A stretch of DNA of 64,000 bases from Eledone cirrhosa (Eukaryota). Each line of letters begins with the position of its first letter. The stretch's first letter is position 1. The notes beneath the pieces are model-generated. The model made no database searches. It was not told the origin of the DNA and saw only the letters and a list, made by a program, of their open reading frames with translations. The position numbers and the translations under genes are program-made. Shown piece after piece: positions 22,800 to 60,459 of the stretch. The stretch covers positions 131,998,001 to 132,062,000 of the forward strand of contig OZ024741.1 of the NCBI GenBank assembly GCA_964016885.1. Direction: 5' to 3'.

Positions 22800-23196
22800 T
22801 GTTCTTCTGGTTTTATAATTTCACAAAGTTTTACTAATAGAGAGGGAGTCAGTTTCTAACATAGACACAAGACTCTCTCATTGGAATTTACACATCAACT
22901 AGGTAGATATGCATGTGTAGATATGGATGTTATTGTATGTATGGATGTGTATGTTTTGAGTTGTATGTGTGCATGTGTATATGCTTTGTATCTGTACATG
23001 TATATATGCAGTTATTAGATGCAAAATTTGTTCCATTAATGCATTGTACTTGTAGTTTCCTAACTAGTTGTGTTCTTTCTGTTCCTGTGAAGCCTAGCTT
23101 CCCAAGATTTGTATTGAGGCAGTTACTAACATATCCCAGTGCCCCAATAATCACAGGCATAAATCTGAAGGTGTAATCATGGTGGAGTATCTGCAT
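22800..23196 (-). mobile_element. 3' fragment of an R4-type RLE LINE with (ATAC)n at its 3' end
   Basis: Translation YTFRFMPVIIGALGYV resembles YTFSFIPIIIGATGYI of the neighbouring element. Confidence 0.7.
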
Positions 23197-27475: not shown

Positions 27476-27553
<78 letters not shown>

Positions 27554-27554
<1 letters not shown>

Positions 27555-33121: not shown

Positions 33122-33787
33122 AGAAGAGGTCTCAAACTCAAAGACACCATTACGTCCTGGAGGAGAGGCACAGTGGGCCAAACGTGGTAGTGGGTGAAGA
33201 TTTTCACCAGTTATAATCATTTCTACAATAGGAACAAGGCATGAAATTTGGGGTTTAGAGTTCAGTCGATTACATCGATCCTAGTACATAACTGGTACTT
33301 AATTCATCGACCCCAAAAGGATGAAAGGCAAAGTTGAGATCGGCGGAATTTGAACACAGAACGTAAAATGTACCGTTAAGCATTTCGCCAGATGTGCTAA
33401 CGATTCCACCAGCTCACCGCCTTATTTTCACCAGTTATAATGCAATATGAAATATTGGTTCTACCACGGGCCACAGAAAAGTAGTTCGCGGGCCGCATGT
33501 TTGAGCCCCCTGTTGCTGATAGATAGATATGTTTCTTTTATTTGCCACCAGGGCATCAAAAGTGGGACAAGTACAAGGGGGGAGTTTACACAAAAAGGCG
33601 TCCTCAATAAGGAGGAGGCAATAACAATATATAAAAATAATATATAACAAAAAATAAAATTTATAACAAAATCCTCAATAGAGAGGAGGCGCCTTGGGGG
33701 GTCGCACACACACCCGAAAAAAGTGTGCAACCCTTTTCCTCAGGAGCACAGAGAGGGGGTGCTCCCTCGTTCCTTCCTCTTTTCCAC

Positions 33788-36700
33788 CTACAGGCTTATG
33801 TAAAGAGATGGCCCATGCACACGGGCCATTCTCGCCACTTTCACCCATCTTTCATAAAAACGACTGGGGTGGAGCACCTCTCTCTCCATCCTGATCCTTC
33901 TTCCGAAATGATATCGGAAGAAACGGACCAGTTGTTGGCCAGAGAGAAAGGTGCCTGACCTCAGTCCTTTCAGACGCGTCCACCATACAACCTCTTTCGC
34001 CATGGCTATTACGCACAGAAACACCGCCTCTGCTTCATCTTTGAAGGGGGGAGGCGGCTTGATCATTACAATAGACTCGGTGGTCAACCGGATCGGTCCC
34101 ACCCTTGACAGCAGTTGTTCGACATAGCCCCACAGATCGGCTACGCCCGAGCAGTGTACCAATGCGTGTGCAACGGTTTCCTCGTCGCACACGCATCTGG
34201 GACAGATCTTTTTGGCGGGGTCCCTACCCGGGCGCCCGTGTCTGTAGAGCTTTTCTCGAACGGGTAGAGCCCCTCGGTAGCACTGCCAGGCCAGGGACTT
34301 CTGGAAGTTGTCCATAGGTCCCGGGCTGAATGTCCTCCCGAACAGGCTGGCCAGTTCGTCCTCCTCCATGTCTAGGGCTTCTCCGAGGGCGTCGTCGCAC
34401 CTGCTGCGTACCAGCCCTCTATAGAATGTTGTGGTGGAGTCTCCACTGATAACCGGATCCGCCTGCCAGAGGGCGGTGAGCGCCTGGGCACACTCAGTGT
34501 GCCAGGCGCCCAGTTTTCTCGGTCTTTGCTTGACCCAGGATTGCAGCTCGGTGAGTGAGACGAGTCTGGGAAAGGTTCGTCTCACAAACGAGGCCCACAC
34601 CGGTTGACCGGTGAGGAATACGTAGAGGTGCCGTAGCCTTAATGCGTGTTTACGCATCATTAGCCACGGCATTCCCAGCCCTCCTTTTGAAGGGTTTTGA
34701 CAGCAGATGGATCTCCTCACCATAGGAGCCCGCCTCTTCCAAAGGAATTGGAAGAGCGCGCGCTCCATCTTGGCGAAGGTTTCCCTTGGGCAGGGCACTA
34801 CGGTCAGGCGGTAGTAGATGACGGACGCTATATAGGTGTTCGCCACCTCCGCCCGACCTTTCAGGGATAGTTTGCAACTGGCCCACTTCTGGGTCAGTGC
34901 AAACACCCTGTTCGTAACCTCCGCCCAGTTTTTCTCCACGTGGAGGTCCGGTCCGAACCAGACCCCGAGCAACTTCACCGGGCCCTCCGTCCAACGTCCG
35001 ACGACGCCATCGGAGGGCATCGGTCTGTCCCTCCGCGTGCCGAGTTGCAAACCGATCGACTTGTCCCGGTTCAGCTTAGCCCCTGTGAACCTTTCGTACT
35101 CCTCCAGTAAGGTGCCGACCGCCTCGATTTCGGAGGCCGTCGACACCATTACTGTTACGTCATCGGCGTAGGCCGACACCGCTTTCCGCAATCCCGGTTC
35201 CAACTGGATGTCCTTCAACAACTCCAACTTCCGAAGTAGTGGCTCGAGAGTCAACACATACAGAAGGGAGGAGAGAGGGCACCCTTGTCGGATGGACCGC
35301 GCAATTTTGAACGGCTCCGAGAGGTAGCCGTTCACCCTGACCCTAGAGCAGATGCGGCTGCTGTGCATAGCAGTGATCCAGCCCCTGAAAACGGGTCCGA
35401 AGCCTGCCGCCGCTAACACCGCATCCAGGTAACCATTGTCGACCCTATCGAACGCCTTAGATTGATCCAAGTTGATCAGAGCCCCACCAAAGCCGGGTCC
35501 GTTCCCAACCCTCTCTATGGTGTATCGCATGAGGTGGAGGTTGTCATAGATGGACCTGGACGGGATAGCGCATGTCTGCGCATCTCCCACCAGGTTGCCT
35601 ACGACAAGCGCCAACCTCTTTGCTAGCACCTTGGCCAAAATCTGTAACTCTGTATTTAGCAGAGTTATGGGCCTGAAGTTACTTATTTCGTCCCCCTTGT
35701 TCTCATCCTTCCTCACTAGCGTGACTACGCCCTTGGTCACAGTACAGGGAATTCTCCCGTTCTGTTGCCAGTTGCAGTAGACCGCCTCGAGGAGATCGGG
35801 GGACAAGTCCGGCATAGCTAGATATAATTCGTAAGGAAGACCATCGAGACCCGGGGATTTGCGTTTGCCGCATTGGCTCAGCACGTCCTCTATCTCAGCG
35901 GCCGAAATCGGCTCCTCGCAGGACTTCGCCTCCCTGTCCGAGAGACGCGGCAGGCCGTCGAGGTATGGACCGAAGTCCACGTTCCCAACCGGCACCCCGC
36001 CCCTCCCGAACAGTCGGGCAAAGTGCCTTTGAAAGGCCTCACACATCTGCTTAGGCTCAAGAATCGCCCGTCCTTCCAGGTCTCGCAAAGACCGGATGGT
36101 GGATTTAGTTCCACTGTTGGCCTCTGTCACGCGGGCCCAGCTAACAGCTTTGGTCCCCTCGTTCCCTAGAGCACGTATTTTACTTCGGACAACGCAGCCT
36201 TCGTGCTTCGCGTCGAAAAACTGGCTCAAAGCCGTTCTCGACGCTAGCACTCTGGCCACGTCGCCGCTTCTAATTGCCTCTTCTACTCTATCGATTAGCT
36301 CCCTTTCCTTCCTATTCCTATCCGCAGCTAGAACCTTACTAAATTCTATCGAGACTACTCTAATCTCTCTCTTTAGAGATACCCACCACCTGCTGTTGAC
36401 GATCGCTCCAGTCAACCGTTCCTTAACTAACGTACTCATCCGATCCCTGTAAACTCTACTTGCCGGCAAGGACAAGTTGAGCTTCCAGTAACCGGGGCCC
36501 TGTCTATGCGTTCTATCAAGGTTGACCATGCAGGTCACCAACTTGTGGTCTGAATAGCCAACCATGAGCATTACTGGACAACTTAAAAAGTCCCTGTCCT
36601 TATTTCTAACTAAAAACCTATCTAGGTACGACCTAGATGATCCGCTGCGATTTGACCAAGACCAGGTTGGCACCGTCGGAAAATCTAGTCGAAATCTATC

Positions 36701-37226
36701 GGCCAGGTCAAATCGGCCGAGTAACCCCTTGAGGCTGTTGCACCCCTCTCTATCGGGACATGCCCCTGCATAGTCCCAACGTGCATCCAGGATACCATTC
36801 CAATCCCCCACTAAAAGCAGGGAACGGGACGTCCCTAGAAAAGACTCCAGACGCTGGAAAAAGTCGAGCCGCTCTGTCCCAAAAGCGACATATGCGGCTA
36901 CCAGCCTAAAGGCTCCACCTTCACCACTGCCAAGGTCCAGCACCACCAGTCGACCCCCTGGGTCCAAGTGAACTATCTGTGTTGCAAGGCCCAGATGTTT
37001 TTGCAGCAGAACGACAACCCCACCCCCACCTCCGGGCTGACAGAGAGATGCGTGCATCTCAAAGTCGTCAAAGGTGGGGGGCTAGCTGCCGCATGTTGCT
37101 GATCCGGGCCTCGCAGATAACCATCACATTTATAGATTGTGACCTGAGGTCATTTAGAAGCATTGCTTGCTTCCAAGATGAGCCCAGACCACGCGCATTT
37201 AGACACCCTACTCTTAGCACAGCCAT
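33788..37226 (-). pseudogene. Tx1-B ORF2 (APE endonuclease, RT, C-terminal Zn finger) with one frameshift near 37075
   Basis: LNARGL, GDWN, YLDRF, SDH, SPGLDG, NFRPITLLN, DQSKAFD, QGCPLS, YADD, CPRC..ETVAHALVHC; N-terminal ~50 aa in another frame. Confidence 0.93.
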
Positions 37227-37250
37227 GTTGGTGGTAAGGAGAAAAGGCAC

Positions 37251-39077
37251 TTACCTCTCTGCGTCCCGGGAAACGGGCCGCTCAATTTCCATGCTGGTTG
37301 GGGATGGGTTGTTGGGTGGGGTGGTGGTTTGTGGAAGTGAAGGGGCATCGGTGTGTTGTGGGGTTGGGGTGTTTGTGGTTGAGTGTGTGTCTGGGTGGGG
37401 GGGGGGGGATTTTTAGGAGGACGCGGTTGATTGGTTTGGCGCAGGGGGGGGGGGGGGTCCACGTCCTCCGTGAAATTTATTTTCAGTGTTTTGTACAAGT
37501 TCATTGGGACTTTTATCATTTTTAAATGAGGTAGTCCCACAGCAGTTATAAAGTTAGGCCCTTCAGTTTGGACCGAAGGGTTTGCTGAAATTGTTTTCCG
37601 TAATTCTTTGTTGTCTGTGTTCATGTATGTATATTGTAAGGTCTTTTTTGTGTAGCAGTTAGTGTTGTGTGACAGGGAGGAGTGGTTTGTGTGTAGTTTG
37701 TGTTCTCTTGGGGGGGGGGGGGTTAAAGTTAACATGTGTGTCTGTGGTGCGTCTCCTCTTCTTTCTTTTTACTTGTTGGAAGGGATCTTTTTCGTCTTGC
37801 GACGAAAGGGGTTCGTCTTCCTTGTTGGGTGGGAGGGGTATGTTTTCTGGTAGTGTTTGCGGTGTGTGTGTTTTTGTATTTGTTTTGGGTGGGGAGGGAT
37901 TGGGTGGGACAGTATTCTGTGTTATTTTTCCACGTGTTTGTTGTTGTTGTTGTTGTTGTTGTGGTGGTGGTGGTGTTGGTTTTTGTTGTTGTTGTTGTTG
38001 TGGTTGTTGTTGGGGTGGTGTTGGTGTTGGTAGCAGTGTTTTTTTCTGTGTGAGCTGGGGACAGGCAGCCCTCGGGTGACCTCTATTGCCACAGAGGTAA
38101 CAGTAGGGACGCCTACCTTCCACAATAATGTTGAGGTGGGTACGGTCATCCAGCATGACGCGCTCAGGGATTTGGGCGATACGTTCTGGCCTTATTTGGG
38201 TCAGAACTTCGATGCTCGTTCCACTGAACGCGTCGCCGGATGCCTTCCCTATTGAAATGAGGTTGTCCTCGTCTAAATTGAGGAAACCGGTTAGTAACCA
38301 CCAGTAGTTTATGTTTGGGGTGATGGTGGTTATCCATATCCTCTGGGTTTTTTTACCCATGTAGGTGGGGAAGAAGGTGTAGTGTGTGGAACGAATTGGC
38401 GACACAGAATATTTTTTCGCCGCCAATTCGTCTTTCATCAATATGGATAAACTCCCATAGAGTTTATCCTTTTGTATGAAAGTGATGTCTGTCATCGCTT
38501 CTTTCAGTACTAACTGAATTTCAGCTTGAGATGGTTGTGCTGGTTTTTTTGTTTTATTTAAAATTGTACGGAATACGACAGTTCGTAATTCCGTCTGTTT
38601 TTTTAGTTCTGGAGGTGAATGTATAGAAAACGAACCGTTTTCGCCAAAAGATACATATTTCTTGGCTTTTTCCAGCATTTCTTTTGCTTTTGAAATATCT
38701 TCCAGCACATACGTGACTGATAATTTAGCCGTTTGTGCAAAAGATATTTTGTTTTCGTTGTTGGTGTTTGTATTGTTTTGTTTCTCGTCGTTTGAGTTGT
38801 TTTCATCTTTGTTTTTGTTGTTGTCTTTCTCGTTTGGTGTGTGGATACTTGTGACGTTTGTGTTGTTGTTGTTTTTGTTGTCTTTATTGTTGCTGTTGTT
38901 GTCGTTGTTGTTGTTGTTGTTTTCAATTTCTTGTATAGTTGTGACCACAGGTGAAGACAATTCTTCCTCTCTCTGACCTCTGCCTTTGGCATCTGCTGCT
39001 GTGACAGTGGCAGGGGGAAGCTGTGAGTATGACTTCCCCTTTCCTTCTTTGATTGATGGTGAAGATGCTTCAGCCAT
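37251..39077 (-). pseudogene. Tx1-B ORF1 (gag-like, CCHC knuckle), frameshifted in C-terminal homopolymer runs
   Basis: CYLCGNRGHPRAAC; homologous to ORF1 at 49064 (P(T/S)(Y/H)MGK, QIRPE, EG(R/K)RP). Confidence 0.88.
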
Positions 39078-39351
39078 TTTTCTCAAAATAGGGTTTTTCG
39101 AAGTTTTTCGAAAGATAAAATGTTTACAATACTATTTCGCCCAAAGGCGCAGAATATTTTGAGAGACCGACCAGATCAAAATTTGACCTGGCAGTCCCTC
39201 TACAAAATGGTACAAAAATGAAAGTTTACAGTTTACAATTTCCGGATGAATTTAAACAAAACTTACCGAGCGAGTTCAGCACATATGTCCATCCTAAAGA
39301 GAGAGATATAGATAGATAGATAGGTAGATAGATAGGTAGATAGACGTGTAC

Positions 39352-44702: not shown

Positions 44703-44828
44703 GGAGGTGAGTTTTATTGTAGTACAATAAAGCAATGCAGATATCGGATAAGTAGCACTCTACAGTTTGTAGGACTGGAGTATAAATAATAATATATGAG
44801 ATCAAAAGATGGTTAAAAGAGTTCCATG

Positions 44829-44899
44829 TATTTTATTATGCGCATTTCAAAAACAAATATCATCATGCAATAACATTTGCGTTTTCATCAGATGAAATA
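44829..44899 (-). ncRNA. Minimal hammerhead ribozyme, family H5 (left arm)
   Basis: As 45010-45080, with one stem I mismatch. Confidence 0.78.
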
Positions 44900-45009
44900 G
44901 GGAGACATGATATGAAGATTAAAACCCACTTGTGAATAGTGCAGTGTGATATGTTGATTTAAAACTGCACTATTCACAAGTGTGTTTTAACCTTCATATC
45001 ATGTCTCCC

Positions 45010-45080
45010 TATTTTATCTGATGAAAACGCAAATGTTATTGCATGATGATATTTGTTTTTGAAATGCGCATAATAAAATA
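45010..45080 (+). ncRNA. Minimal hammerhead ribozyme, family H5, apparently intact
   Basis: TATTTTAT-CTGATGA-AAACGCAAATGTTATT-GCAT-GATGATATTTGTTTTT-GAAA-T-GCGC-A-T-A-ATAAAATA: 8-bp stem I, GU-rich stem II, palindromic loop 3, AUA triplet. Confidence 0.85.
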
Positions 45081-45117
45081 TATGGAACTCTTTTAACCAT
45101 CTTTTGATCTTATATAT

Positions 45118-45168
<51 letters not shown>

Positions 45169-45419
45169 TATACACACATTCACATACACACACAAATATA
45201 CACGCACACATTTCAAGCCTTTAATCATATCGCATTTATCACGTACATATATCACACCCATATATCACAAAAAAATCTACACAATAAACTGATTATCTAT
45301 ACACTAACTACATTATACATATATTTAGCAGGATATAAACACTCATGAAGGAAATACGTATAATTCATCTGATTTGTTCTAAACATCTAAAGAGATTCCT
45401 CATTAGTTCTGGATAGGTG

Positions 45420-46305
45420 TTCTCCTTTTCGCTAATCTTTAATATTATACTGGCATCTGTTGGGCAGCAGACTTCCACTACTGTGCATGCCTTCTTTTCC
45501 CTGTGCTATATCACTACATCTGGTCTGTTATGCTTGTATTTTATCGGGGGGGGGGGGGGGGGTGACTGGAATATTCCAACAGTACTCTTTTTGTATGTCT
45601 TTTATGCATATGTCTTCCACATTGCTGTAACTTTTAATATGTTTATTGTCGGGTCTATCTTTTCTACGTATTGCATTGTATAGTATTTTGGACACTATAT
45701 GCCTTATAGGTACCATGATGACATCTTTGGACAACTGCTTATGAGATGGGTAACATCTGCGGTGTTAATTCTGCAGTATCTACAATTGCTGTATTATCTC
45801 GGTTTTTTTCCTGCAACCTTTTCTCTTTTGTGAATCAGGTATTTTGTGTTCATTTCCTGTTCTTGGATTGCAAAAGCATATCCTTCATAGTGGGAGCCAA
45901 TATTGCGTTTGTTGGTACAAAATAGACTACTTAGTTTATCTATATTACTCTCACTTTGGAGCCTCGTGGTAACATATCCATGCATGATTTTTTGCTGATA
46001 AGCATGCAACTTTTCATCCATGGATTCACTGCGGTATTGCTGGACAATTTCCTTGAGTGTGAGTTTTTGATTACCATGCAGTGAGTATTTCTCAATGAGC
46101 TCCTTCTGAAATGCCATGATCTTATCTGTTTCATGTAGACAAGCTTGCTTAATAGATTGGCTTCTTACTCTTGGTGGTTCGTAGATGTTGTCGGAGGGAT
46201 ATGTTGCAAAACTCAAATGCTGCCCAGGCTGATGTGAGACCTCTGCCTGCCTGTTTATGTTTCAGCTTGAGGTGGTCTATGTTACTGTTGATGTAGAAAT
46301 TTCTC
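45420..46305 (-). mobile_element. Degenerate R4-type LINE fragment
   Basis: NFYINSNIDHL..GRGL, YEGYAFAIQEQEMNTKYL, CRYC..H...C, RPD. Confidence 0.8.
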
Positions 46306-46790
46306 AATAAGGCGTTTTTAACCAGATGTTTGGTTGTGCTGACTGGATGGTGAGAATTCTTACTAATGTAATTTAACGTGGCATTAAGCTTTCTATACGG
46401 GTAGTGTAGGCTGTTCGACATATTGGTTGTCACATCGAGGAAATTCACCTGAGATAGATTACTGGGTTTTATCGGAGTGAACATGCACAGTATTAGAATC
46501 CTTTATCCAGCGGATTCTATTCTTTAAATCCTGTTCGAAGGAGTTGCTTCTCTTTCGAAATTTGAAACTCCGTGAGTTGAAGTACATGCTTTTCGAAAGG
46601 TAATGAAACTGGGCTGCTTTGAGGGTTATTGTAAGTCTTAAATCCAAACGTTTGCTGGTGTTTATTAGCTTTATCCTGCTGGTTGAAATAGAAGGTACGC
46701 CACCGCATCCTTTTTAGGAAAAAACAATTCTTATTTATGAGTATTCTTAAGTATGTCTTCCTGTTTGGTACCGAAATATCTGCTCTGTTT
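46306..46790 (-). mobile_element. Internally deleted Penelope-like RT fragment
   Basis: MRWRTFYF, FGFKT, VHSDKT joined directly to NFLDVT..YPYRK..NYISKNSHHP. Confidence 0.75.
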
Positions 46791-47534: not shown

Positions 47535-47566
<32 letters not shown>

Positions 47567-47589
47567 ATAAAGAAACCATTATTATTATT

Positions 47590-48851
47590 ATTGATGAAAT
47601 AAAGCACCAGTAATGCACTGGGGTCGTTTTAATCGACGCCCCCCCCCCCCAAAAAAAAAAGAATATTGCCGGCATTGTGCCTATAGTAGAAACCATTAAT
47701 ACTATTATTATTATCAGTATCGGTAGAGGGTCGGACGCCATGCTTTCCAGCATAGTTACGTCCCTTTACAGTCTGAGTTCAAATCCCGCCGAGGTTAACT
47801 TTGCAGCATTGAGTTACGGCCCTTTATGATCTGAGTTCAACATCCGCCTAGGTTAATTTTGCTTTTCATCCTTACGGGATCGATAAAATAAAGTACCAGT
47901 CACGCACTGGGGTCAATTTAATCGCTTCTCCCTCCCCCAAAATATGCTGGCCTTGTGCCTATATAAGAAACCAGTGGTGGTTTGGCAGTATCGGTAGCGG
48001 GTCGGACAACATGCTTTGTAACACAGAGTTACGCCCCTTTCTGATCTGAGTTCAAATCCTGCCGAGGTTAACTTTGCCTTTCATCCTTACGGGGTCGATA
48101 AAATAAAGTACCAGTAATGTACTGAGTAATTGCTGGCCTTGTGCCTAAAGTAGAAACAATTATTCATTATTATCAGTATCGTTAGAGGGTCGGACGCCAT
48201 GTTTTCTAGCATAGTTACATCCCTTTACAGTCTGAGTTCAAATCCCGCCGAGGTTAACTTTGCCTTTCATCCTTACGGGGTCGATAAAAAAAAGTACCCA
48301 TCACGCACAGGGGTCGATTTAATCGACTTTCCCCTCCCCCAAAATTGTTGGTCTTGTGCCTATATAAGAAACCATTATTATTATCGATAAAATAAAGCAC
48401 CAGTAATGCACTGGGGTCGATTTAATCGACCACCCCACTCCTCCACCCCAAAAATAAATTGCTGGCATTGTGCCTAAATCAAAAACCATTATTAATTTGG
48501 ATTGGCAGTATCGGTAGAGAGTCGGACACCATGCTTTGCAGCATAGAGTTATGGCCCTTTATGGTCTGAGTTCAAATCCCACCGCGGTTAACTTTGCCTT
48601 TCATCCTTACGAGGGCGATAAAATAAAGTCCCAGTGGTACACTGGGACAATTGCTGGCCTTGTGCCAAAAGTAGAAACAATTATTATTATGCATTCAAAT
48701 CTCGCTGAGGTTAACTTTGCCTTTCATCCTTACGTGGTCGATTAAATAAAGTACCAGTAATGCATTGGGGTCGATTTAATCGACTTTTCCCTCCCCTCAA
48801 ATTACTGGCCTTGTATCCATAGTAGAAATCATTATTATTATTATTATTATT
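47590..48851 (+). mobile_element. Head-to-tail array of about eight full or 5'-truncated Meta-domain SINEs
   Basis: Repeated heads, B-boxes, Meta cores and tails joined by (ATT)n, all on +. Confidence 0.93.
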
Positions 48852-49063
48852 GACGAAAGTGGATGTACGTTTTTTGAAGCTCCGTGAGTAAGCAATTTTT
48901 TGAGGATTAATTGTAGAGAATTGTTTATTTTTTGTACCGCTGAAGCATTATAAGACATTAATTTGTATCCTGTGAAGGAATAACTCATAATATTTGGGCC
49001 TTTTGGCCCAAATATTTGAACTTTATTTTGAAAAAAAAATAATAATTTTTTTCTCAAAAAAAC

Positions 49064-50926
49064 ATGGCGGAGCCACGCCCCCTAGAGGCGGGTCTGCTGT
49101 CGTGCAACGGCGACTTGAGCGTTGAGAGGAGAGGTGAGGCGAGGAGCGCCACCAGCACGAATGTGAGCAGCGACAGTGCCAGCACCAACGGGCCGAGCGG
49201 CGCGGAAGGTGGTAACAGCGACAACACCAACACCAACAAGCCGAACAGCGCAGAAGGTGGTAATAGCGAGAGCACCAACAAGGCCAACAGCACAGAAGGT
49301 AACCACGACACAGGGGAGAACAACAACAGCAATAGCAGCAGCAACACCAACAAGAACAACAACAGTGACAACACCAACAAGAACACTTTCGCTGCTGTGG
49401 CAGCGGCTAAAAGGAGACCATGCTACAGCATCGACTTAACCAACAGAGAGGAAAAGTTGGCCCAGGCCTGGAAAATCATAAATCAAGAGCAGACCTGGGC
49501 AAACTTAACTGTCCCGGCAGAAGCCATTGAGGCAGTGGAAAAAAGAACGGTGCATTTCAGATGCATCTCAGTAGAGACAAAGAGGGCAGCGATAATCGCC
49601 CAAGCTGACATAGAAGCCGCACTGAAATACATCAGAGAGGACACAGACTTCATAGAGAGGGGCAGGCAATACGGCACCGTTTCGGTGCTGTTCAAGTCTG
49701 AAGCCCTCGCTGTGAAGCATTCAATGACCCCTTGCAAAACCAGCAAGGTCATAATGTACCCCTCCCACATGGGAAAACGAATAGCACGTGTGCGCATTCC
49801 CAGGATTCCACCAGGACTTGATATGTGGTGGCTCCTGGGTTGCGTAATCGTGGAAGGAACGGATACAGTCCCGGTAGAGGCAACGAGAACTGCCAGGGAC
49901 GACTGGTCCGGGGTTGATCTGGAGATACTGCTCCAAATCAGACCCGAAAACGTGAAAGCAATCCCGGACCACATCCGCCTCCAAAACGGGAGGGTGTTGC
50001 ATATAATGACTGAGGGCAAAAGGCCGCATTGTTTCCTTTGTGGGGAAACGACACACTTGCGAGCCTTCTGCCCTCAACTGCCGAAAAGCGCAAGGGGTCG
50101 AAAGATTCCACTGCTGGCGACGCCGGGACAAGGACCACCAGCAACACCGTCAACAATGGAACCACCAAAATTGCACACCCAGGGGGGAAACGAGGAAAGC
50201 TCTCCCATTCCCCCTCCCCCCCAAAATACACACACGAACAAGAACATAAACACTCACTCAGACACAAACACGCTCACAGCCACAGACCCCTCATCCTCCA
50301 GCAGTGAAGATGAGGGAAAACCAAAGTCCCCCAAAATACAAAAAACAAAACACAAAAAAAAAAGAAATCCACAAAGCACAAACACCCCCACAAAAGAAAA
50401 TACACACACCACCCACACAAACATTTTCCCCACAGCATCACCAACACAACCACCACAATCCCCCAAACGCAAACAAGCTAAACAGACACAAGAACAAATA
50501 GACACACAAACATCAGAAACTACAGACACCCCACCCACAACAAACGCAGACACAATAGAAACAACACTAACAAAGCTATCACCACCACAATCACACGAAC
50601 AAATAAAACCCGAGCAACAAAACATTAAAAACTTCGTGCTTGCCAGAAGGGCCAACAAGGAATTGATGGCCCATGTAGCACGAAGCACAAACATCGAAAA
50701 AGACGGGGAAACATTTGAAGCGAGCACATTTCGCGTACCAGATAATTTGCTTCTGATGCGAATGTCGCTCGCTTCATACAAAGAAATTCGAAAGAGCTTT
50801 CCTCGGGATGTGGGAACCCCGAACGTAAAACCCACGTCAAGACTATTAAAGGGGTTCCCAAAAGAAACCCCACAAACCATGGAGGTCGAACCACCCGACC
50901 TTCACAAGACCCCGGAAGGTAAGTAA
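49064..50926 (+). CDS. Tx1-A ORF1, gag-like nucleic-acid-binding protein, 620 aa
   Basis: CCHC knuckle CFLCGETTHLRAFC; low-complexity N/S/T and P/T/Q/K flanks. Confidence 0.92.
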   Translation: MAEPRPLEAGLLSCNGDLSVERRGEARSATSTNVSSDSASTNGPSGAEGGNSDNTNTNKPNSAEGGNSESTNKANSTEGNHDTGENNNSNSSSNTNKNNNSDNTNKNTFAAVAAAKRRPCYSIDLTNREEKLAQAWKIINQEQTWANLTVPAEAIEAVEKRTVHFRCISVETKRAAIIAQADIEAALKYIREDTDFIERGRQYGTVSVLFKSEALAVKHSMTPCKTSKVIMYPSHMGKRIARVRIPRIPPGLDMWWLLGCVIVEGTDTVPVEATRTARDDWSGVDLEILLQIRPENVKAIPDHIRLQNGRVLHIMTEGKRPHCFLCGETTHLRAFCPQLPKSARGRKIPLLATPGQGPPATPSTMEPPKLHTQGGNEESSPIPPPPQNTHTNKNINTHSDTNTLTATDPSSSSSEDEGKPKSPKIQKTKHKKKRNPQSTNTPTKENTHTTHTNIFPTASPTQPPQSPKRKQAKQTQEQIDTQTSETTDTPPTTNADTIETTLTKLSPPQSHEQIKPEQQNIKNFVLARRANKELMAHVARSTNIEKDGETFEASTFRVPDNLLLMRMSLASYKEIRKSFPRDVGTPNVKPTSRLLKGFPKETPQTMEVEPPDLHKTPEGK

Positions 50927-50955
50927 ACCTTTCCTCTCCCATTCATCCTGCCAGC

Positions 50956-53900
50956 ATGGCCATAAGAGTAGGAAGTTTAAATGTTCGTGGCCTGGGGTCG
51001 CCCTGGAAGCAAGGTCACTTGCTCAACGACCTCAGGTCACTAGGAATGGATGTAATTGCCATCAGCGAGACCAGAATTTCCGACACACGCGCACTGGCGC
51101 CGATTTTCGACGATTATCAGATCTTTGCATCTGTTAGTCGGCCGGGAATGGGAGGTGGAGTGGCTGTGCTGTTTAGGAAATGTCTGGATCTCGAGGTAAG
51201 GTCAATCTTCCGGGATCCTGACGGAAAGTTGGTGGTCCTGGACGTGAGCAATAGCGAAGGTGGTGCCTTTAGACTGGTGGCCGTCTACGCCCCTACTGGG
51301 GCCGGTCGGCCGGACTTCTTTAGGCGCCTGGAAAACTTTCTGCTTACGTCTCGCCCTTTACTGTTAATAGGGGATTGGAATGGCATCTTAGAAGCACGCT
51401 GGGATTGTGTGGGAGTATCTGATAGGAGCGGGGGGTGCAAAAGCCTCAAGTACCTGATCAGCCAGTTTCAACTGTCTGACAGGTACCGACTAGATTTCCC
51501 TAATGCGCCAGTATGGACCTGGACCAATCGCATAGGGTCATCTAGATCGTACATAGATAGGATTTTCATTAGGAAAAGAGATAGAAATAGTGTAGGATGT
51601 CCACATTTTAAAACGGTTGCCTATTCAGATCACAAGCTTGTGATCTGTATGGTCGACCTAGATAAGACACGTAGGTTAGGACCTGGCTACTGGAAGCTAA
51701 ACATGTCGTTTCCGGCACGTAAAGCTTACAGGGACCGGGTCAACAACTTAGTTAAGCAAAAGTTGACAGGGGGGGTTGTCAACAACAGGTGGTGGGGGGC
51801 ACTCAAAAGAGAGATTAGAGCAACCTCGATAGGATTTAGCAAAGAAGTAGCAATAGAGAAAAATAGAAAGGAGGAGGGGCTGATAGCTAAGTTAGACGAG
51901 GCTATTTGTAGTGGCATTGCAACAGACGTGCTAGCGGCGAGAATGGCACTAGACCATTTCTTCAATGCGAAACACGAAGGTTGCATTGTCAGAGCTAAGG
52001 CGCGTGCTCTGAGGAACGAGGGAACCAAAGCTGCCCGATGGGCTCGCTTTGCAGAGACGCAGCGTGGAAATAAAACCACAATTCGGTCTTTGACGGATCG
52101 AGATGGACACGAACTGAGCGATTCCAAGCAGATGTGTGAGGCCTTTCGCCAGCACTTTGCTCGATTGTTCGGGAGGATGGGTGAGTCGGAGACGGCGGCG
52201 GACTTCAGTCCCTACCTCGACGGCTTGCCACGCCTCTCGACGGCCGACGCTGAGCGCTGCGAAGAGCCGATAACATCAGCCGAAATTCAGGACGCCCTTG
52301 TCGGCTGCTCGAGTCGCAAGTCACCCGGTTTGGATGGTCTGCCCTACGAGCTTTACGTAAATATGCCAGACTTGTTCTCCGATCTCCTCGAAGCGCTCTA
52401 CTGCAACTGGCAGCAGAACGGGAGCATTCCCAGTTCTGTGAGCCGTGGCGTAGTGACGCTGATAAGGAAAGACGAGAACAAGAGGGACACACTAGATAAT
52501 TTCAGGCCCATAACCCTGCTCAACACAGAGTTTAAGATTTTGGCCAAGGTGTTAGCGAAAAGGTTGGCGCTTGTCGTCAAAGATTTGGTTGGGGAGGCGC
52601 AAACTTGCGCAATCCCGACCAGGTCCATACACGACAACCTCCACCTCATGCGATACATCATAGAGAGGGTTGGGTGCAAACCTGGCTTCGGTGGGGCTCT
52701 GATCAATTTAGATCAATCGAAAGCATTCGATAGGGTCGACCATCGGTACTTGGAGGCTGTCCTCGAGGCGGCTGGCTTCGGCCCCGTCTTCAGAAGCTGG
52801 ATCGCTGCAATGTACAGCGGCATCCGCTCGGTGGTCAAAGTTAATGGCCACCTCTCGGAACCGTTTCAGATCTCTCGATCGGTCCGTCAAGGGTGCCCTC
52901 TCTCCTCACTTCTGTACGTATTGACTCTTGAGCCTCTACTGCGGAAGCTGGAGTTGTTGCAGGGCATCCCGCTCGAACCGGGACGTAGAAAGGCTGCGTC
53001 CGCTTATGCGGACGACATCACCGTGATGGTGTCGGACACCTCGGAAATCGAGGTGATCCGCACCCATTTGGAGGAATATGAAAGGTTGACGGGAGCAAAA
53101 CTTAACCCGGAAAAGTCGGTGGGCTTGCAGCTCGGCACCTGGAGAGGCAAGTCCATGCCGTCCAACAGCGTCGTTGGGCGCTGGACAGACGGACCGGTAA
53201 AGTTGCTCGGGGTTTGGTTCGGACCAGACCTCCAGGTGGATAAGAATTGGGACGAGGTGACGAGCAGGATAGCCAACCTCACCCAGAAATGGGCTGAGAG
53301 AAAGCTATCACTGAAAGGGCGGGCGGAGGTGGCGAACGCGTACATCGCGTCCGTCATCTACTACCGCCTGACCGTCGTGCCTTGCCCCCGTCCACGCCTC
53401 GCCAATTTGGAACGGCTCCTTTTCAAATTTTTGTGGAGGGGACGGGTCCCGTTGGTGAGGCGGTCCATCTGCTGCCAGCACCCTCTTCGTGGAGGGCTGG
53501 GCATGCCGTGGCTAATGATGCGCAGACATGCGCTGAGGCTGCGACATCTCCAGATATTTTGCCTAAACGGTGAACAGGTGTGGTCGCCGTTTGTTAGACG
53601 GGCCTTTCCGCAGCTCATCTCTTTGACTGAGCTGCAGTCCTGGGTCAAGAAGAGACCGAGACTGGGCGACTGGCATCTGGAATGTTGCCAGGCGCTCACT
53701 GCACTCTGCAAGGTGGGCAATGCGGTCAGTGGAACTTCCACTCAAGATTTCTATAGAGGATTAGTGGAGGGCAAGTGCGATGACGTACTAGGAGAGGCTC
53801 TGGGCGTCAACGAAGTAGAACTGACCAGTATGTTCCGGAGGACTTTCGAGCCGGGGACGATGGATAACTTCCAGAAATCCCTCGCTTGGCAGTGCTACCG

Positions 53901-54375
53901 GGGGGCGCTGCCGGTTCGGGATAAACTCTACAGGCACGGAAGTGCTGTCAGACGAACCTGCCCGAGATGCGCGCAGAGCGACGAAACCGTTCTGCACGCA
54001 CTCGTCCAGTGTCCGTGCATTGCTGACTTGTGGGGTTATGTCGAACAGCTATTGTCGCGTGTAGAACGGATCCGGCTATCGTCCGAGTCCATAGTGAAGA
54101 TTGACCCGCCGCCTTCTTTTGGTCAGGAAGGGCAGGCAATTTTCCTCTGCCTGGTGGCAGTAGCGAAAGAGGTTGCATGGTGGACCAGGTTGAAAGGACT
54201 GAAGACAGACACTTTTCTCTTCGGCCAATCCCTCATCAACTTCTTCAAGTTTCACTTGGAAAGGAAGGTGAGGGTGGAGAGAGAAGTGCTGCCCCCCAGT
54301 ACATTTACTGAAAGGTGGGTGAATGTGGCGAGAATGGCCCGCGTGAGTGGGCCTACTCTGATCATGCGCCTGTAG
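50956..54375 (+). CDS. Tx1-A ORF2, APE endonuclease-reverse transcriptase with C-terminal Zn finger, 1139 aa
   Basis: LNVRGL, SET, VYAP, GDWN, YIDRIF, SDH, SPGLDG, NFRPITLLN, DQSKAFD, QGCPLS, YADD, CPRC..ETVLHALVQC. Confidence 0.97.
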   Translation: MAIRVGSLNVRGLGSPWKQGHLLNDLRSLGMDVIAISETRISDTRALAPIFDDYQIFASVSRPGMGGGVAVLFRKCLDLEVRSIFRDPDGKLVVLDVSNSEGGAFRLVAVYAPTGAGRPDFFRRLENFLLTSRPLLLIGDWNGILEARWDCVGVSDRSGGCKSLKYLISQFQLSDRYRLDFPNAPVWTWTNRIGSSRSYIDRIFIRKRDRNSVGCPHFKTVAYSDHKLVICMVDLDKTRRLGPGYWKLNMSFPARKAYRDRVNNLVKQKLTGGVVNNRWWGALKREIRATSIGFSKEVAIEKNRKEEGLIAKLDEAICSGIATDVLAARMALDHFFNAKHEGCIVRAKARALRNEGTKAARWARFAETQRGNKTTIRSLTDRDGHELSDSKQMCEAFRQHFARLFGRMGESETAADFSPYLDGLPRLSTADAERCEEPITSAEIQDALVGCSSRKSPGLDGLPYELYVNMPDLFSDLLEALYCNWQQNGSIPSSVSRGVVTLIRKDENKRDTLDNFRPITLLNTEFKILAKVLAKRLALVVKDLVGEAQTCAIPTRSIHDNLHLMRYIIERVGCKPGFGGALINLDQSKAFDRVDHRYLEAVLEAAGFGPVFRSWIAAMYSGIRSVVKVNGHLSEPFQISRSVRQGCPLSSLLYVLTLEPLLRKLELLQGIPLEPGRRKAASAYADDITVMVSDTSEIEVIRTHLEEYERLTGAKLNPEKSVGLQLGTWRGKSMPSNSVVGRWTDGPVKLLGVWFGPDLQVDKNWDEVTSRIANLTQKWAERKLSLKGRAEVANAYIASVIYYRLTVVPCPRPRLANLERLLFKFLWRGRVPLVRRSICCQHPLRGGLGMPWLMMRRHALRLRHLQIFCLNGEQVWSPFVRRAFPQLISLTELQSWVKKRPRLGDWHLECCQALTALCKVGNAVSGTSTQDFYRGLVEGKCDDVLGEALGVNEVELTSMFRRTFEPGTMDNFQKSLAWQCYRGALPVRDKLYRHGSAVRRTCPRCAQSDETVLHALVQCPCIADLWGYVEQLLSRVERIRLSSESIVKIDPPPSFGQEGQAIFLCLVAVAKEVAWWTRLKGLKTDTFLFGQSLINFFKFHLERKVRVEREVLPPSTFTERWVNVARMARVSGPTLIMRL

Positions 54376-54651
54376 GCTGGTGAATTCGAGAAGGAGAGGG
54401 GTGCCCTTCCCGGGTGCCCTAGGAGCGTCGGGTGGCTCAGGACTGGTGGGGTGCTTGAGTCAACCCTGGGTGGTGATCCCTCTTATTGGGGAACTTTCAT
54501 TGTTGTATTTTTATTGTTATTTTGTTTTTTTTGTTATTTATACTTACTCGATCTCTATGTAAACCCCCACTGTCCCTGTCTATTGTGTTGTCCCCTATAT
54601 GTCGGCCCTTGTGGCCAATAAATGAAATCATTATTATTATTATTATTATTA

Positions 54652-54965
54652 TCCCTTTATGATCTGAGTTCAAATCCCGCCGAGGTTAACTTTGCATTTT
54701 ATCCTTATGGGGTCGATAAAATAAAGTACCAGTAATGTACTGGGTAATTGATGGCCTTGTGCCAAAAATAGAAACAATTATTATTATTATTATATCCGCT
54801 TGTTACGATCTGAGTTCAAATACCACTGAGGTTAGCTTTGCCTTTCATCCTTACGGGGTCGATAAAATAAGGTACCAGTCACGCACTGGGGTCAATTTGA
54901 TCGACTTTCTCCTCCCTCCAAAAAGATTTCTGGACTCGTGTCTAAATGAGAAACCATTATTATTA
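54652..54965 (+). mobile_element. Two 5'-truncated Meta-domain SINEs continuing the array
   Basis: B-box, core and tail twice, joined by (ATT)n. Confidence 0.9.
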
Positions 54966-55686: not shown

Positions 55687-56480
55687 CTAGCTCCATATTT
55701 CCATACTAGGTCACTGAAGCTCCCCAGTTCGATACTGTGCCACCCTAGCTCCGCAGTGCCATAATGCGGTACCCTAGCTTCAATGTCCCATATTTTCCTA
55801 CACTATTTCCCTTTTAACATAGGGGGTCACCCTAGCTCCATATTCCATACTGTGTCACTGAAGTTCATCAGTTCCATAGTGTGCAATACTAGCTCCGCAA
55901 TGCCATAGTTAGCTTGAAATCCCATATTTTCTTACAGTGTCTCCCCGTTGGCATAGAGGGGCCACCCGAGCTCCATATTTCTATACTATGTCACTGAAGC
56001 TCACCAGTTGCATAATGTGCCACCCTGGCTTCGCTGTGCCATGGTGCAGCAGCCTAGATTGAAAGTGCCATATTTTCTTATACTATATCCCCATTGCCAT
56101 AAGAGGTCACCCTTACTCCATATTTCCATACTGTGTCACTGAAGCTTCCCAGTTCCATAGTGTGCCGCCCTAGCTCTGCAGTGCCATAGTGCGGCACACT
56201 AGCCCCGAAGTGCCGTATTTTGCCTTTCTATCTCCCCATTGTCATAGGGGCTCACCCTAGCTCCATATTTCCATACTATGTCACTGAAACTCCCCTGCTT
56301 CATGGTGTGCCACCCTGTTCCGCAGTGCCATAGTGCGCACGCTAGCTTCAAAGGGCCATATTTTCCATACTATCTTCTTATTTCCACAGGGGTGACCCTA
56401 GCTCCGATGTGCCGTATTTTACCACCCTATCTCCCCATTGCCATATTTTACCATCCTATGTTCCCAGGGCCATACTGTCC
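55687..56480. repeat. Tandem satellite, ~145-bp monomer, ~5.5 diverged copies
   Basis: Monomer starts (CTAGCTCCATATTT-like) at ~55687, 55832, 55967, 56112, 56257, 56398. Confidence 0.9.
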
Positions 56481-56843
56481 CTTAACAGAATCTTAAGTCG
56501 ATGATGATGATGTTGATGGTGATGATGATGATGATGATGTTGATAGTGATGATGATGATGATGATTATGATGATGATGATGTTGTTATGGATGAAAACGA
56601 AGATGATGGTGATGATGGTGATGATGATAAGGATGATGTTGATGATAATGATGATGATGATAATCATTTACTCATCAGTTTATTCTCTTTTAGAGATACA
56701 TACACTCACATTTTTATTTCTGCTTGCCTTTTATATGTATTCAAGTTTGCACACACAAATCTTCTCCCTCATCAGCTCTCAAACAAGCAAAATGGTTTCG
56801 CACGATTTAATTCACACACACTCACACACACACACACATATGT

Positions 56844-56910
<67 letters not shown>

Positions 56911-56913
<3 letters not shown>

Positions 56914-58183
56914 CCAATCTTTGCTCCCAAATACAGGAAGCCCTCAACCAATTCTAGCGGCTTCCCGTCTACATTAGTGATCCCCTCTGGCTTCTCAACA
57001 TTCTCTACCAGATATTTTGTTTTAGTCTCATTCATCCTCAGCCCCACACTCATCGACACAGTCTCAACCTCCCGCATCAAATCCTCTGCCTCCTTCACTG
57101 TATTTGTCACCAAAACTATGTCGTCGGCAAATTCAGCATCCGATACCTTTTTCGCCCTAACTCTCCTGCTCTGAGCTGGTGCTACAGTAAAGCCAGAGTC
57201 CTGGTGTTTCTCCAGTGCAAGGCGCATACAATAGTCCACTACGATGATAAAAAGGTAGAGAGCCAATGTATCTCCCTGGAGCACTCCAGCCAGTATCTCA
57301 AAGAACTCTGTCATCCCATCAAGTGTAATGACTTGGGCTTTGGTGTTGGTGTAGAGCAGTGATATCAGGTCCACTATCTTCTTGGGGATTCCATAAGCCT
57401 GTAAGATCTTCATCAGGCAGTAACGGTCCACAAAATCAAAGGCCTGCCTAAAGTCAATGAAAACCATGACCGCAGGAAGGCACTTTGCTCTAGCTCCCTC
57501 TAATATCCTCCTCAGCATCAGGATGTGACTGGTGGTTGATCTACCCTCTCTGAAGCCGTTCTGGTTGTCCCTGAGCTTCTTCTCCATCTCAGGCTGGATC
57601 CTGTTAAGAATCATCCTGTTGAGGGTCTTTTCCACAAGTGACGTCAGTGACGGAAGATGATGTGGTTGAGAGGAAGAGCAAGGCCTGGGCGGCGTGCCAC
57701 AGTTTGAGATCGGTGTGGAAGTCGGACCTTCGTAGAGACCTGAAAATCCGCCTCTTCATTGCTGTAGTGGAGTCTGTGATGCTGTATAGGTCTGAGACTT
57801 GGACACTGACCAAGAAACTCACTCAAATGATGGATGGGTGCTACACGAGAATGCTGAGGTGGCTCTGAACATTAATCAGTATACACTGAGGATGAAAAAC
57901 TCAAAGCTGTATGGGAGCATCCCAAAAGTCAGCTCAAAAGCGACACAGAGGAGACTGAGGTTAGCTGGACATGTTCACCGACATCCAGAGTTGACATTGC
58001 ACTCAGTACTCCTTTGGGAGCCCCTACATGGACACACTAGAAGAGGAAGACCAAGGTTAACGTATGTTGATGCCCTAAGGACAGACACTGGTCTGTTGGA
58101 GACGCAGGACATGGCAGCGATAATGAGGGACAGAGACCGCTGGAGAGAACTCGTCCATGGATCTCGGGAATTTTACCCGCCTT

Positions 58184-59770: not shown

Positions 59771-59773
<3 letters not shown>

Positions 59774-60459
59774 AAAGATGAATATAAAATGAAAGTGCTT
59801 TTATAAAGGAATTTATTAGGTATTGACATATGTTTCTGTAACAGACGGAATACCTATGTATTGCTGCTTGCGTAATCATATAATGTTAGCAAGTATTCGA
59901 TAGCAAATGTATAATCAGTTGTCACTTCTTCAGAGATACTGGATAAATTGGAAAAAATCAGAAAAATTAAAGTATTTATATTAGTTGTAAGAAAGGAAGA
60001 AGAGAAGGGATAGTATATGACAGATGGCAATTCAATTTACTGGTCAACAAGTATATAGAAGGTTTCTAATGAGAATACAATGAGTATATGGCTTATTTTA
60101 TCTAAATAAGAATTTTTGGGAATGCCTATTTTAATCTATACTTGACCAATTGAACAATGGACAGGGTTGGTCATATACTATCCCCTCTCCTCTTCCTTTC
60201 TTACAACTAATATAAATACTTCAATTTTTCTGATTTTTTCCAATTTATCCAATTTATTCAATTTATTCCATTTTTTCAAATTTATCTAATTTATCTCTGA
60301 AGAAGTGACAACTGATTATACATTTGCTATCGAATACTTGCTAACATTATAAGATTACGCAAGCAGCGATACATAGGTATTCCGTCTGTTACAGAAACAT
60401 ATGTCAATACCTAATCAATTCCTTTATAAAAGCACTTTCATTTTATATTCATATTTTCT
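59771..60459. repeat. Foldback: arms 59771-60021 and 60170-60459, 148-nt spacer
   Basis: Reverse-complement identity; right arm has an expanded CAATTTAT micro-repeat. Confidence 0.93.

What the first reader, a model, noticed from the sequence alone, without database searches (positions are those of the whole stretch)
47590..54965. Candidate Tx1 LINE / MetaSINE partnership that builds its own (ATT)n target arrays
Seen: the Tx1-A end GGCCCTTGTGGCCAATAAATGAAATC(ATT)n aligns with the SINE end GGCCTTGTGCCAAAAGTAGAAACA(ATT)n, both with a GGC-TTGT-GCC mini-hairpin, then GAAA and an ATT tail. The LINE sits inside a same-strand array of about ten SINEs, each starting in the previous copy's ATT tail. 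Known: many SINEs share 3' ends with a partner LINE, and Tx1-clade elements are often target-specific. Inference: Tx1-A mobilises this SINE, and each insertion deposits a new target. Shared tails are unusual for L1-group elements. Caveat: a similar ~20-nt motif lies in an R4-like 3' region at ~22852-22872 (minus), a competing origin.
Basis: partly seen in the sequence, partly recalled or inferred. Interest (0 to 1): 0.8.

Follow-up and report, generated by a model that had tools for sequence, protein, structure and literature searches.

The report
SINE mimics Tx1 LINE 3' hairpin
A very abundant short jumping element in this genome ends in the same small hairpin layout as a group of long self-copying elements that insert into ATT repeats, and it likely borrows their enzyme, which would be a rare tail-matched partnership for the LINE-1 group in animals.

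Summary
Observation confirmed, interpretation partly right. An intact, very young L1-group (Tx1-like) LINE (48852-54629) lies in an array of ten independently inserted tRNA-type SINE pieces. All 30 Tx1-A copies examined at each end abut (ATT)n. The SINE and the Tx1 families examined share a terminal layout: short stem, loop (mostly CUUGU), 6 nt, GAAA, 2 nt, ATTAT, with compensatory stem changes. SINE target duplications (median 15 bp) start at Y|ATTAT, the Tx1 register. Corrections: (1) Tx1-A is the worst tail match; sister Tx1 families fit better, so the likely partner is the ATT-targeting Tx1 group. (2) The SINE has no real (ATT)n tail: 9.5% of SINE ends versus 76% of Tx1 ends are followed by (ATT)4. 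(3) Arrays grow by re-use of duplicated target sites on either side, not by depositing tails. (4) The Meta domain was not found. The R4 motif is real but internal, and that family sits in (ATAC)n. Trans-mobilisation is inferred, not shown. Precedents: crocodilian SINEU/Tx1-Mar (shared target, poly(A) tail) and maize ZmSINE2/LINE1-1. New variant of a known kind.

The parts
47535..47565 (+). (ATT)10 run at the 5' edge of the array
   Evidence: TRF
47566..47577 (+). AATAAAGAAACC between ATT runs: likely a 12-nt remnant of a sister Tx1 (family E-type) 3' end
   Evidence: sequence; same end as family E; assignment inferred from 12 nt
47593..47694 (+). SINE piece 1, long form, 5'-truncated
47715..47804 (+). 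SINE piece 2, 5' half only, joined mid-body to piece 3
47805..47972 (+). SINE piece 3, long form; no ATT after its end
47973..48158 (+). SINE piece 4, short form, full length
48174..48373 (+). SINE piece 5, long form, nearly full length
48385..48487 (+). SINE piece 6, long form, 5'-truncated
48499..48679 (+). SINE piece 7, short form, full length; A-box-like and B-box-like motifs; 3' hairpin TGGC-CTTGT-GCCA at 48655-48667
48691..48830 (+). SINE piece 8, long form, 5'-truncated; its end GAAATC precedes the LINE's 5' ATT run
48831..48851 (+). (ATT)7, 5' flank of the LINE (contains its target duplication, at most 21 bp)
48852..54629 (+). Full-length L1-group (Tx1-like) LINE 'Tx1-A', about 5.8 kb, near-identical to the best-scoring copies elsewhere in G000
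48990..49015 (+). 5' UTR inverted repeat (11-bp arms, TTTT loop); counterparts in sister families, one of which reads GGCCTTGTGCC like the SINE tail
49064..50926 (+). ORF1, 620 aa, CX2CX4HX4C knuckle at residues 323-336; no Pfam hit
50956..54375 (+). ORF2, 1139 aa: Exo_endo_phos, RVT_1, zf-RVT; best solved-structure match human LINE-1 ORF2p (E 6e-57)
54604..54629 (+). LINE 3' signal: GGCC-CTTGT-GGCC hairpin, AATAAA, T, GAAA, TC
54630..54652 (+). (ATT)7 AT, 3' flank of the LINE
54653..54776 (+). SINE piece 9, short form, 5'-truncated
54803..54955 (+). SINE piece 10, long form, 5'-truncated; ATTATTATTAT..ATCC(C)GCTTGT occurs both before and after it (imperfect target duplication)
22852..22873 (-). 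Rival motif inside the 3' UTR of an R4-like family, about 50 nt from its end, enclosed by a GAGAGAGTC/GACTCTCTC inverted repeat
33531..39294 (-). Tx1-B, a TATC-repeat-flanked relative with the same terminal layout (TGCC-CTGGT-GGCA AATAAAA GAAA CA)

Best explanation
The SINE and the Tx1-like LINEs of this genome end in the same layout (short stem, CUUGU loop, 6 nt, GAAA, 2 nt, ATTAT) and insert in the same Y|ATTAT register, so the SINE is likely copied in trans by ORF2 protein of the ATT-targeting Tx1 group as a whole, of which Tx1-A is the youngest member examined. Shown: shared layout, compensatory stem changes, target duplications, repeated insertion at the same sites. Inferred: ORF2p binds the hairpin, nicks the bottom strand after ATAAT, and the RNA's AUU-containing 3' end anneals to the nicked strand; the LINE RNA would carry several AUU units from its own 3' flank (AATAAA lies 12-13 nt before the repeat) and so need a long (ATT)n target, whereas the Pol III SINE RNA would end after about AUUAU and accept short sites. 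Each insertion duplicates about 15 bp of target on both sides, and these duplicated sites are re-used, which builds mixed SINE/LINE arrays.
For: Hairpin: among 115 Tx1 ends pair 2 is G-C 84, A-T 24; pair 3 is C-G in 113 of 115 Tx1 ends and G-C in 194 of 223 SINE ends, loop CTTGT in both (the search patterns fixed the loop in SINEs and partly fixed loop and pairs 3-4 in Tx1). Fixed-register identity up to 17-18 of 25 with families D/E/C. Of 143 clusters of repeat-adjacent sequence in 1.44 Mb, only the SINE, a Tx1 5' UTR motif, the internal R4 motif and one Tx1 3'-end cluster have a positive median score on a SINE-tail matrix; the second Tx1 3'-end cluster ranks sixth, the overall median is -20 bits. 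SINE target duplication of 9 bp or more in 53 of 110 full-length copies (mismatched-pair control mean 3.85), median 15 bp, ATTAT at 35-37 of 37 per position, C/T before it in 30 of 37. Tx1-A duplications have upper bounds of 12-24 bp in 6 of 6 paired flanks. A SINE sits exactly behind a Tx1-D end with a 16-bp duplication; 3 of 30 Tx1-A 5' ends follow a SINE end, 16 of 30 follow a Tx1 end. 12 of 53 SINEs with a duplication sit directly behind another SINE end (7 of 44 in random blocks plus window, counted from the list) against 2.2% of all ATTAT sites. Adjacent SINE pairs: median 90% identity, 4 of 47 at 98% or more, 22 of 48 of mixed subtype. Ages overlap: Tx1 families A 100, F 91, D 89, E 85% pairwise; SINE copies 78-99% to their nearest relatives, 9 of 265 at 99% or more. 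0 of 138 Tx1 ends carry poly(A). ATT- and TATC-flanked Tx1 separate on an ORF2 tree (98/100).
Against: Target strictness differs strongly: (ATT)4 follows 8,614 of 11,348 sister-Tx1 ends (76%) but 11,766 of about 123,857 SINE ends (9.5%; background 172 of 4,645, 3.7%); the annealing explanation for this is untested, and crocodilian SINEU-1/2 also show weaker preference than their presumed partner (PMC4494074). The shared region is only 25 nt. By plain sequence the best matches to the SINE tail are not Tx1 3' ends but the internal R4 motif (19-20 of 25 to the long form; nearly identical to an old SINE subfamily) and a Tx1 5' UTR motif. The best Tx1 3'-end matches include the TATC group (family C, 17-18 of 25), whose target does not fit. 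The stem is short: pair 1 is mismatched in about half of SINE ends and the LINE end folds no better than shuffles. Tx1 duplications lie inside pure repeats, so their lengths are upper bounds. Only about 1.7 of 2,996 Mb was held; a rare or extinct partner may be missed. No RNA ends were seen.
Confidence: 0.68

Rival explanations
1. An unidentified LINE (RTE, CR1/L2 or an extinct family) mobilises the SINE, priming by microhomology at ATTAT; the likeness to Tx1 ends is convergent or a relic, and co-location reflects a shared liking for ATT-rich sites.
For: The SINE target is far looser than any Tx1 family counted. RTE-like and CR1-like RT hits are common (15 and 2 of 41 in 800 kb). ATT runs are also used, in the opposite polarity, by an R4/Dong-like family ending in (AAT)n, so co-location alone proves little.
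Against: No such 3' end scored on the SINE-tail matrix among 143 clusters; the RTE/CR1-like ends that could be traced end in (GAT)n, (TA)n or other sequence (several could not be traced). Genome-wide pattern searches for the SINE stem with other linkers returned SINEs (30 of 30; 25 of 30 with a recognisable SINE body, none of the other five recognisably a LINE in the 120 nt shown).
Confidence: 0.15
2. The R4-like family at 22852-22873 is the source and driver of the SINE tail.
For: 19-20 of 25 identity to the long SINE form and near identity to an old SINE subfamily ending CTTGTG(C/T)CTATGTTAGAAA (128 exact ends); the R4 copies are 83-92% identical to the window copy, so the family is old enough.
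Against: The motif lies about 50 nt inside the R4 3' UTR and the R4 terminus is absent from the SINE; 29 of 29 traced copies are followed by ATAC, not ATTAT; the motif does not form the SINE stem; the other R4-like ends seen lack it. Capture of a SINE end by this one R4 family is the simpler reading, but the direction is not shown.
Confidence: 0.07
3. Tx1-A alone drives the SINE and each SINE deposits an (ATT)n tail that seeds the next insertion.
For: Tx1-A is intact, young and ATT-specific; a few SINE copies are as young; in 16 of 53 cases some ATT-like letters are added before the duplication, so the SINE RNA does carry a short AUU end.
Against: Tx1-A has one extra base and the lowest tail identity; most SINE copies are older than Tx1-A appears (Tx1-A copies were chosen as best hits, which biases them young); 37 of 53 duplications begin at the ATTAT itself; younger copy upstream 20, downstream 17, tie 8.
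Confidence: 0.06
4. The arrays are products of unequal crossing-over between target duplications, not of repeated insertion.
For: Proposed for bivalve SINE tandems (PMC11481361). Six Tx1-A ends in a row with identical (ATT)5 spacers at G000:C1:423.385-423.415 Mb fit this, or an assembly artefact.
Against: Window array pieces 73-94% identical; 22 of 48 adjacent SINE pairs are of different subtype; mixed Tx1 family arrays at G000:C1:37.10-37.22 Mb.
Confidence: 0.04

Closest known systems
Crocodilian SINEU families and Tx1-Mar (Kojima 2015, PMC4494074; abstract, passages, sections 14 and 16 read)
   Same: SINE presumed mobilised by target-preferring Tx1 LINEs; tandem copies sandwiching a target duplication by sequential insertion; SINE preference can be weaker than the LINE's.
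   Different: SINEU have U1/U2 heads and poly(A) tails, and no LINE sharing the SINEU-1 3' terminus was found; target is a Mariner. Here: tRNA-type head, no poly(A), shared 3' hairpin layout, microsatellite target.
Microsatellite-specific Tx1 families Kibi (TC)n, Koshi (TTC)n and crocodilian (TTCC)n/(TTTC)n Tx1 (as described in PMC4494074, passages)
   Same: L1-group two-ORF elements inserted specifically in microsatellites.
   Different: Targets here are (ATT)n and (TATC)n; relationship to Kibi/Koshi was not tested (no reference sequence on hand).
Maize/sorghum ZmSINE2/3 with LINE1-1_ZM, and Chlamydomonas SINEX-3 with L1-1_CR (Ohshima 2013, PMC3747384; passages and Table 1 read)
   Same: L1-clade LINE with a conserved 3' stem-loop, compensatory changes, shared with a tRNA SINE ('stringent' recognition).
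   Different: [quoted passage not shown]
L1 snap-velcro priming (PMC4014453; abstract only)
   Same: Target choice set by endonuclease specificity plus RNA-target base pairing.
   Different: There poly(A) pairs with T tracts; here AUU repeats would pair with (AAT)n. Untested here.
MetaSINEs (Nishihara 2016, PMC4824008; passages, section 10, supplement part 1 and search hits; Fig. 2 alignments not visible)
   Same: tRNA-type head followed by a conserved body; partner LINE unknown in that paper.
   Different: The Meta domain as printed for BivaMeta-SINE1 is not seen in this SINE. The cuttlefish SepiaSINE2 sequence could not be seen.

Membership tests
L1-group non-LTR retrotransposon | Two ORFs; ORF2 with AP-like endonuclease, RT and C-terminal zinc motif, closest to L1 | tested here: met
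   Pfam Exo_endo_phos, RVT_1, zf-RVT; best PDB match human L1 ORF2p E 6e-57, R2 proteins 1e-22
Tx1 clade | RT phylogeny groups with Tx1/Keno/Kibi/Koshi references | not testable with these tools
   No named Tx1 reference among 97 homologues or 7 clusters; the label rests on L1-group placement, target specificity and recalled resemblance
Tx1 clade | Target-sequence preference | tested here: met
   (ATT)n at 30 of 30 3' ends and 30 of 30 5' ends; ATTATT after 10,944 of 11,348 sister-family ends
tRNA-derived SINE | [quoted passage not shown] | tested here: met
   A-box-like 93 of 110, B-box-like 104 of 110 (copies were selected by a head motif that overlaps the A box); about 185-215 bp; 148 core hits in 800 kb; duplications 53 of 110. 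ARAGORN and Rfam found no tRNA, so the parent tRNA is unassigned
MetaSINE superfamily | 66-bp Meta domain directly after the tRNA head | tested here: not met
   Three 12-13 nt motifs of the BivaMeta-SINE1 body (supplement) found in 0 of 110 copies with up to 2 mismatches; visual comparison shows no colinear match. Tested against one family only; the consensus in Fig. 2B was not visible
CORE-SINE (octopus OR1/OR2 are listed as such) | About 65-bp CORE domain | not tested
   OR1/OR2 sequences not on hand; identity of this SINE with them is open
Stringent-type SINE/LINE pair | Shared 3' terminal sequence and stem-loop with compensatory changes | tested here: met
   shared part is only 25 nt
Stringent-type SINE/LINE pair | Same insertion signature and overlapping activity | tested here: inconclusive
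   Same register, compatible duplication length and ages but 9.5% versus 76% use of (ATT)4
Stringent-type SINE/LINE pair | Trans-mobilisation depends on the shared 3' element | not testable with these tools
   needs an assay

The most novel reading that the evidence does not exclude
An animal L1-group (Tx1) lineage uses stringent recognition of a 3' CUUGU hairpin instead of poly(A), a SINE with well over 100,000 copies has copied that hairpin, and one and the same ORF2p is microsatellite-specific for its own RNA but nearly free (Y|ATTAT) for the SINE because the length of the RNA's AUU end, not the endonuclease, sets the specificity.
Probability: 0.4. Interest if true: 0.75.

Novelty: new variant of a known kind. 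Interest (0 to 1): 0.56.

Why it matters
Shared-tail SINEs are nearly absent from the L1 group (3 in PMC3747384, none in animals), and the one Tx1/SINE pairing I found in print rests on shared targets and heads, not tails. This system gives an intact, recently active ORF2p, sister families with two different microsatellite targets, natural compensatory variants of the RNA signal, and a passenger RNA with looser targeting. That makes two open questions testable: how L1-group proteins recognise non-poly(A) templates, and how much of site specificity comes from the endonuclease versus RNA-target pairing. It would also name the engine of a SINE with at least 123,857 exact tails in a 3-Gb genome. 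Whether Repbase or Dfam already note the pairing could not be checked.

Tried and rejected
Looked for a LINE with the SINE-type stem plus a poly(A)-signal-like linker: 84 matches, 30 of 30 examined were SINEs. Looked for an R4 family ending at the motif: 128 matches, 25 of 30 with SINE body, the other five not recognisably LINE in the 120 nt shown. Looked for a Tx1 family with a relaxed ATTAT target: only 404 of 11,348 ends lack ATTATT; the 30 examined of 117 were mostly families D and E in imperfect repeats. Dong-like (AAT)n family: opposite polarity, unrelated tail, rejected. Tracing RTE/CR1 3' ends worked for only part of 17 RT hits. Expression: no RNA holder listed; contigs of four runs were laid but cannot show RNA ends; no conclusion drawn. 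ARAGORN, Rfam and the bacterial promoter scan gave nothing useful. Protein atlas and cluster look-ups gave no clade name. Earlier findings: two look-ups, nothing. Literature: eight searches found no paper describing a Tx1-derived SINE tail or this SINE's partner; the library lacks most subscription papers, the 1994 octopus SINE paper and Kojima and Fujiwara 2004 were not read, and Repbase was not available. I took the host to be a cephalopod from recalled resemblance of the repeats; no call shows it. Family letters A-H and 'short/long form' are my labels. An early count of tandem spacers (4-6 units) was wrong; one search gives 5-14 units behind Tx1 ends for Tx1-A.
Full report
Observation. The window holds an intact L1-group LINE at 48852-54629 with ORF1 (620 aa, CCHC knuckle) and ORF2 (1139 aa; endonuclease, RT, zf-RVT; best PDB match human L1 ORF2p). 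It is flanked by (ATT)7 on both sides inside a run of ten same-strand SINE pieces. Eight of nine SINE tails are followed by ATTAT or ATTAA, and the nine tailed pieces are 73-94% identical, in two forms. The quoted ends are exact.

The LINE genome-wide. Searches of G000 gave 3,034 and 1,362 candidates for the 3' and 5' ends, of which 40 each were scored and 30 each fetched, one being the window. All 30 3' ends are followed by ATT repeats without poly(A) and all 30 5' ends are preceded by them; 16 follow another Tx1 end, 3 a SINE end, 11 a plain repeat. Sister families exist: D, E, F (ATT-flanked) and B, C (TATC-flanked); the two target groups separate on an ORF2 C-terminal tree of 15 genome rows and 5 database rows (98/100; at most two rows per end type were kept). 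Exact sister-family ends followed by ATTAT number 11,348, of which 10,944 continue ATTATT and 8,614 (ATT)4 (these patterns do not match Tx1-A, which has one extra base). Head-to-tail arrays of mixed families occur at C1:37.10-37.22 Mb and homogeneous Tx1-A runs at C1:423.39 Mb.

The SINE genome-wide. Twenty 40-kb blocks chosen at round coordinates gave 148 core hits; the exact short-form tail plus ATTAT occurs 123,857 times. It has no real (ATT)n tail: 104 of 118 copies have 0-2 units, and (ATT)4 follows 11,766 ends, about 9.5%, against a background of 3.7%. Instead 53 of 110 full-length copies have an exact target duplication of 9 bp or more (control 3.85), median 15 bp; 37 start exactly at the end of the element with ATTAT, preceded by C or T in 30 of 37. 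In the other 16 a few ATT-like letters precede the duplication, so the RNA itself likely ends in a short AUU stretch. The head has A- and B-box-like motifs. Motifs of the Meta domain, as printed for BivaMeta-SINE1 in the supplement of PMC4824008, were found in 0 of 110 copies, so 'MetaSINE' is not supported.

The shared end. The better alignment has no gaps: stem, CUUGU loop, stem, 6 nt, GAAA, 2 nt, ATTAT. Tx1 families vary the stem with pairing kept (pair 2 G-C 84, A-T 24 of 115), and the SINE has the third pair flipped (G-C in 194 of 223, C-G in 113 of 115 Tx1) (part of this was fixed by the search patterns). Identity in register is 14-18 of 25 for D, E, F, C and 12-14 for Tx1-A. Among 143 clusters of repeat-adjacent sequence, Tx1 ends are the best-scoring true termini after the SINE itself; two internal motifs score higher. 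One lies in the 5' UTR of a sister Tx1 family, where other families have a related hairpin with another loop. It is nearly identical to the end of an old SINE subfamily, so the two are probably related by capture, direction unknown, but that family's terminus and target do not fit the SINE.

How arrays form. 12 of 53 SINEs with a duplication sit directly behind another SINE end (7 of 44 without loci chosen for Tx1), against 2.2% of ATTAT sites. Adjacent pairs have median 90% identity and 22 of 48 mix subtypes, which means sequential insertion; the younger copy is upstream 20 times, downstream 17 times, tie 8 (30 of the loci in that set were selected for long-form tails and 30 for old tails). 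So both copies of the duplicated site are re-used. A SINE inserted exactly behind a Tx1-D end with a 16-bp duplication. Tx1-A duplications cannot be measured inside pure repeats, but upper bounds of 12-24 bp in six paired flanks are compatible. An R4/Dong-like family uses the same repeats in the opposite polarity.

Ages. Pairwise identity of 3' ends: A 100% (biased, best hits), B 95, F 91, D 89, E 85, C 78. Short-form SINEs differ by a median 5% from their nearest copy in another block, long forms by 15%; 9 of 265 copies are 99% or more like their three nearest. The Tx1-ATT group spans the SINE's history; Tx1-A alone does not.

Mechanism. Likely (0.68): ORF2p of the ATT group binds the 3' hairpin, nicks after ATAAT on the bottom strand and primes on the RNA's AUU end. 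The main unexplained point is 76% versus 9.5% use of long repeats. My proposal is annealing length: AATAAA lies just before the repeat, so LINE RNA would include several AUU units, while the Pol III SINE RNA would stop early. This parallels the snap-velcro model (PMC4014453, abstract only) and is untested; no RNA data were available.

Known context. Tx1 families specific for microsatellites, a Tx1-driven SINE (SINEU) and tandem copies sharing a duplication are described in PMC4494074, but SINEU have poly(A) tails and no shared terminus was found for SINEU-1. PMC3747384 reports only three SINEs with L1 tails, in plants and algae. PMC11481361 lists CR1, CR1-Zenon, L2 and Nimb as bivalve partners and has no mention of Tx1 (passages). 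PMC13282606 lists active L1-Tx1 and many unclassified SINEs in an octopus without pairing them in the passages seen. PMC5786205, PMC4758252, PMC3531059 and PMC5804259 were seen as passages, PMC13295347 as abstract and outline; none describes this pairing in what I saw. Figures and Repbase entries that I could not see may bear on the SINE's name and on novelty.

Verdict. New variant of a known kind; interest 0.56.

Noticed in passing
window 33531-39294 (-): Full-length Tx1-B with TATC repeats at both ends and broken ORF1/ORF2 starts; member of a (TATC)n-targeting sister group with the same terminal hairpin layout.
   Followed up: partly
L241, L247, L254 (about 140 nt after the ATT run); window 48990-49015: Tx1 5' UTRs carry a hairpin 40-70 nt before ORF1; in one family it reads GGCCTTGTGCC plus AAAATTTAAAC, like the SINE tail. 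Possible second binding site or alternative source of the tail.
   Followed up: partly
window 22800-28520 (-): Stacked R4-like elements of two families separated by (ATAC)n runs; similar stacks in L062, L081, L082, L085, L089 suggest a parallel self-targeting system on ATAC repeats.
   Followed up: partly
G000:C1:37100001-37220000 (L261-L272): R4/Dong-like 3' ends with (AAT)n lie tail-to-tail with Tx1 ends across the same ATT runs.
   Followed up: partly
G000:C1:423385001-423420000 (L273-L276): At least six near-identical Tx1-A copies head to tail with identical (ATT)5 spacers: repeated insertion, unequal crossing-over or assembly artefact.
   Followed up: no
window 55687-56405: Tandem repeat with a 145-bp period built from 29-bp subunits, about 5 copies.
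   Followed up: no
window 44781-45128 and 59771-60459: Long inverted repeats (172-bp arms, 4-nt spacer; 168-bp arms, 353-nt spacer), possibly MITE-like or foldback elements.
   Followed up: no
window 48631-48648: The short SINE form has a 9-bp hairpin (CCAGT..ACTGG) upstream of the tail hairpin; the long form adds a further inverted repeat and a C-rich tract.
   Followed up: no
window 45300-46760 (-), 56772-57755 (-), 29860-30366 (-), 58570-59320 (-): Further LINE fragments: another R4-like family, an RTE-like RT, a CR1-like RT and an older Tx1-like 3' part.
   Followed up: no
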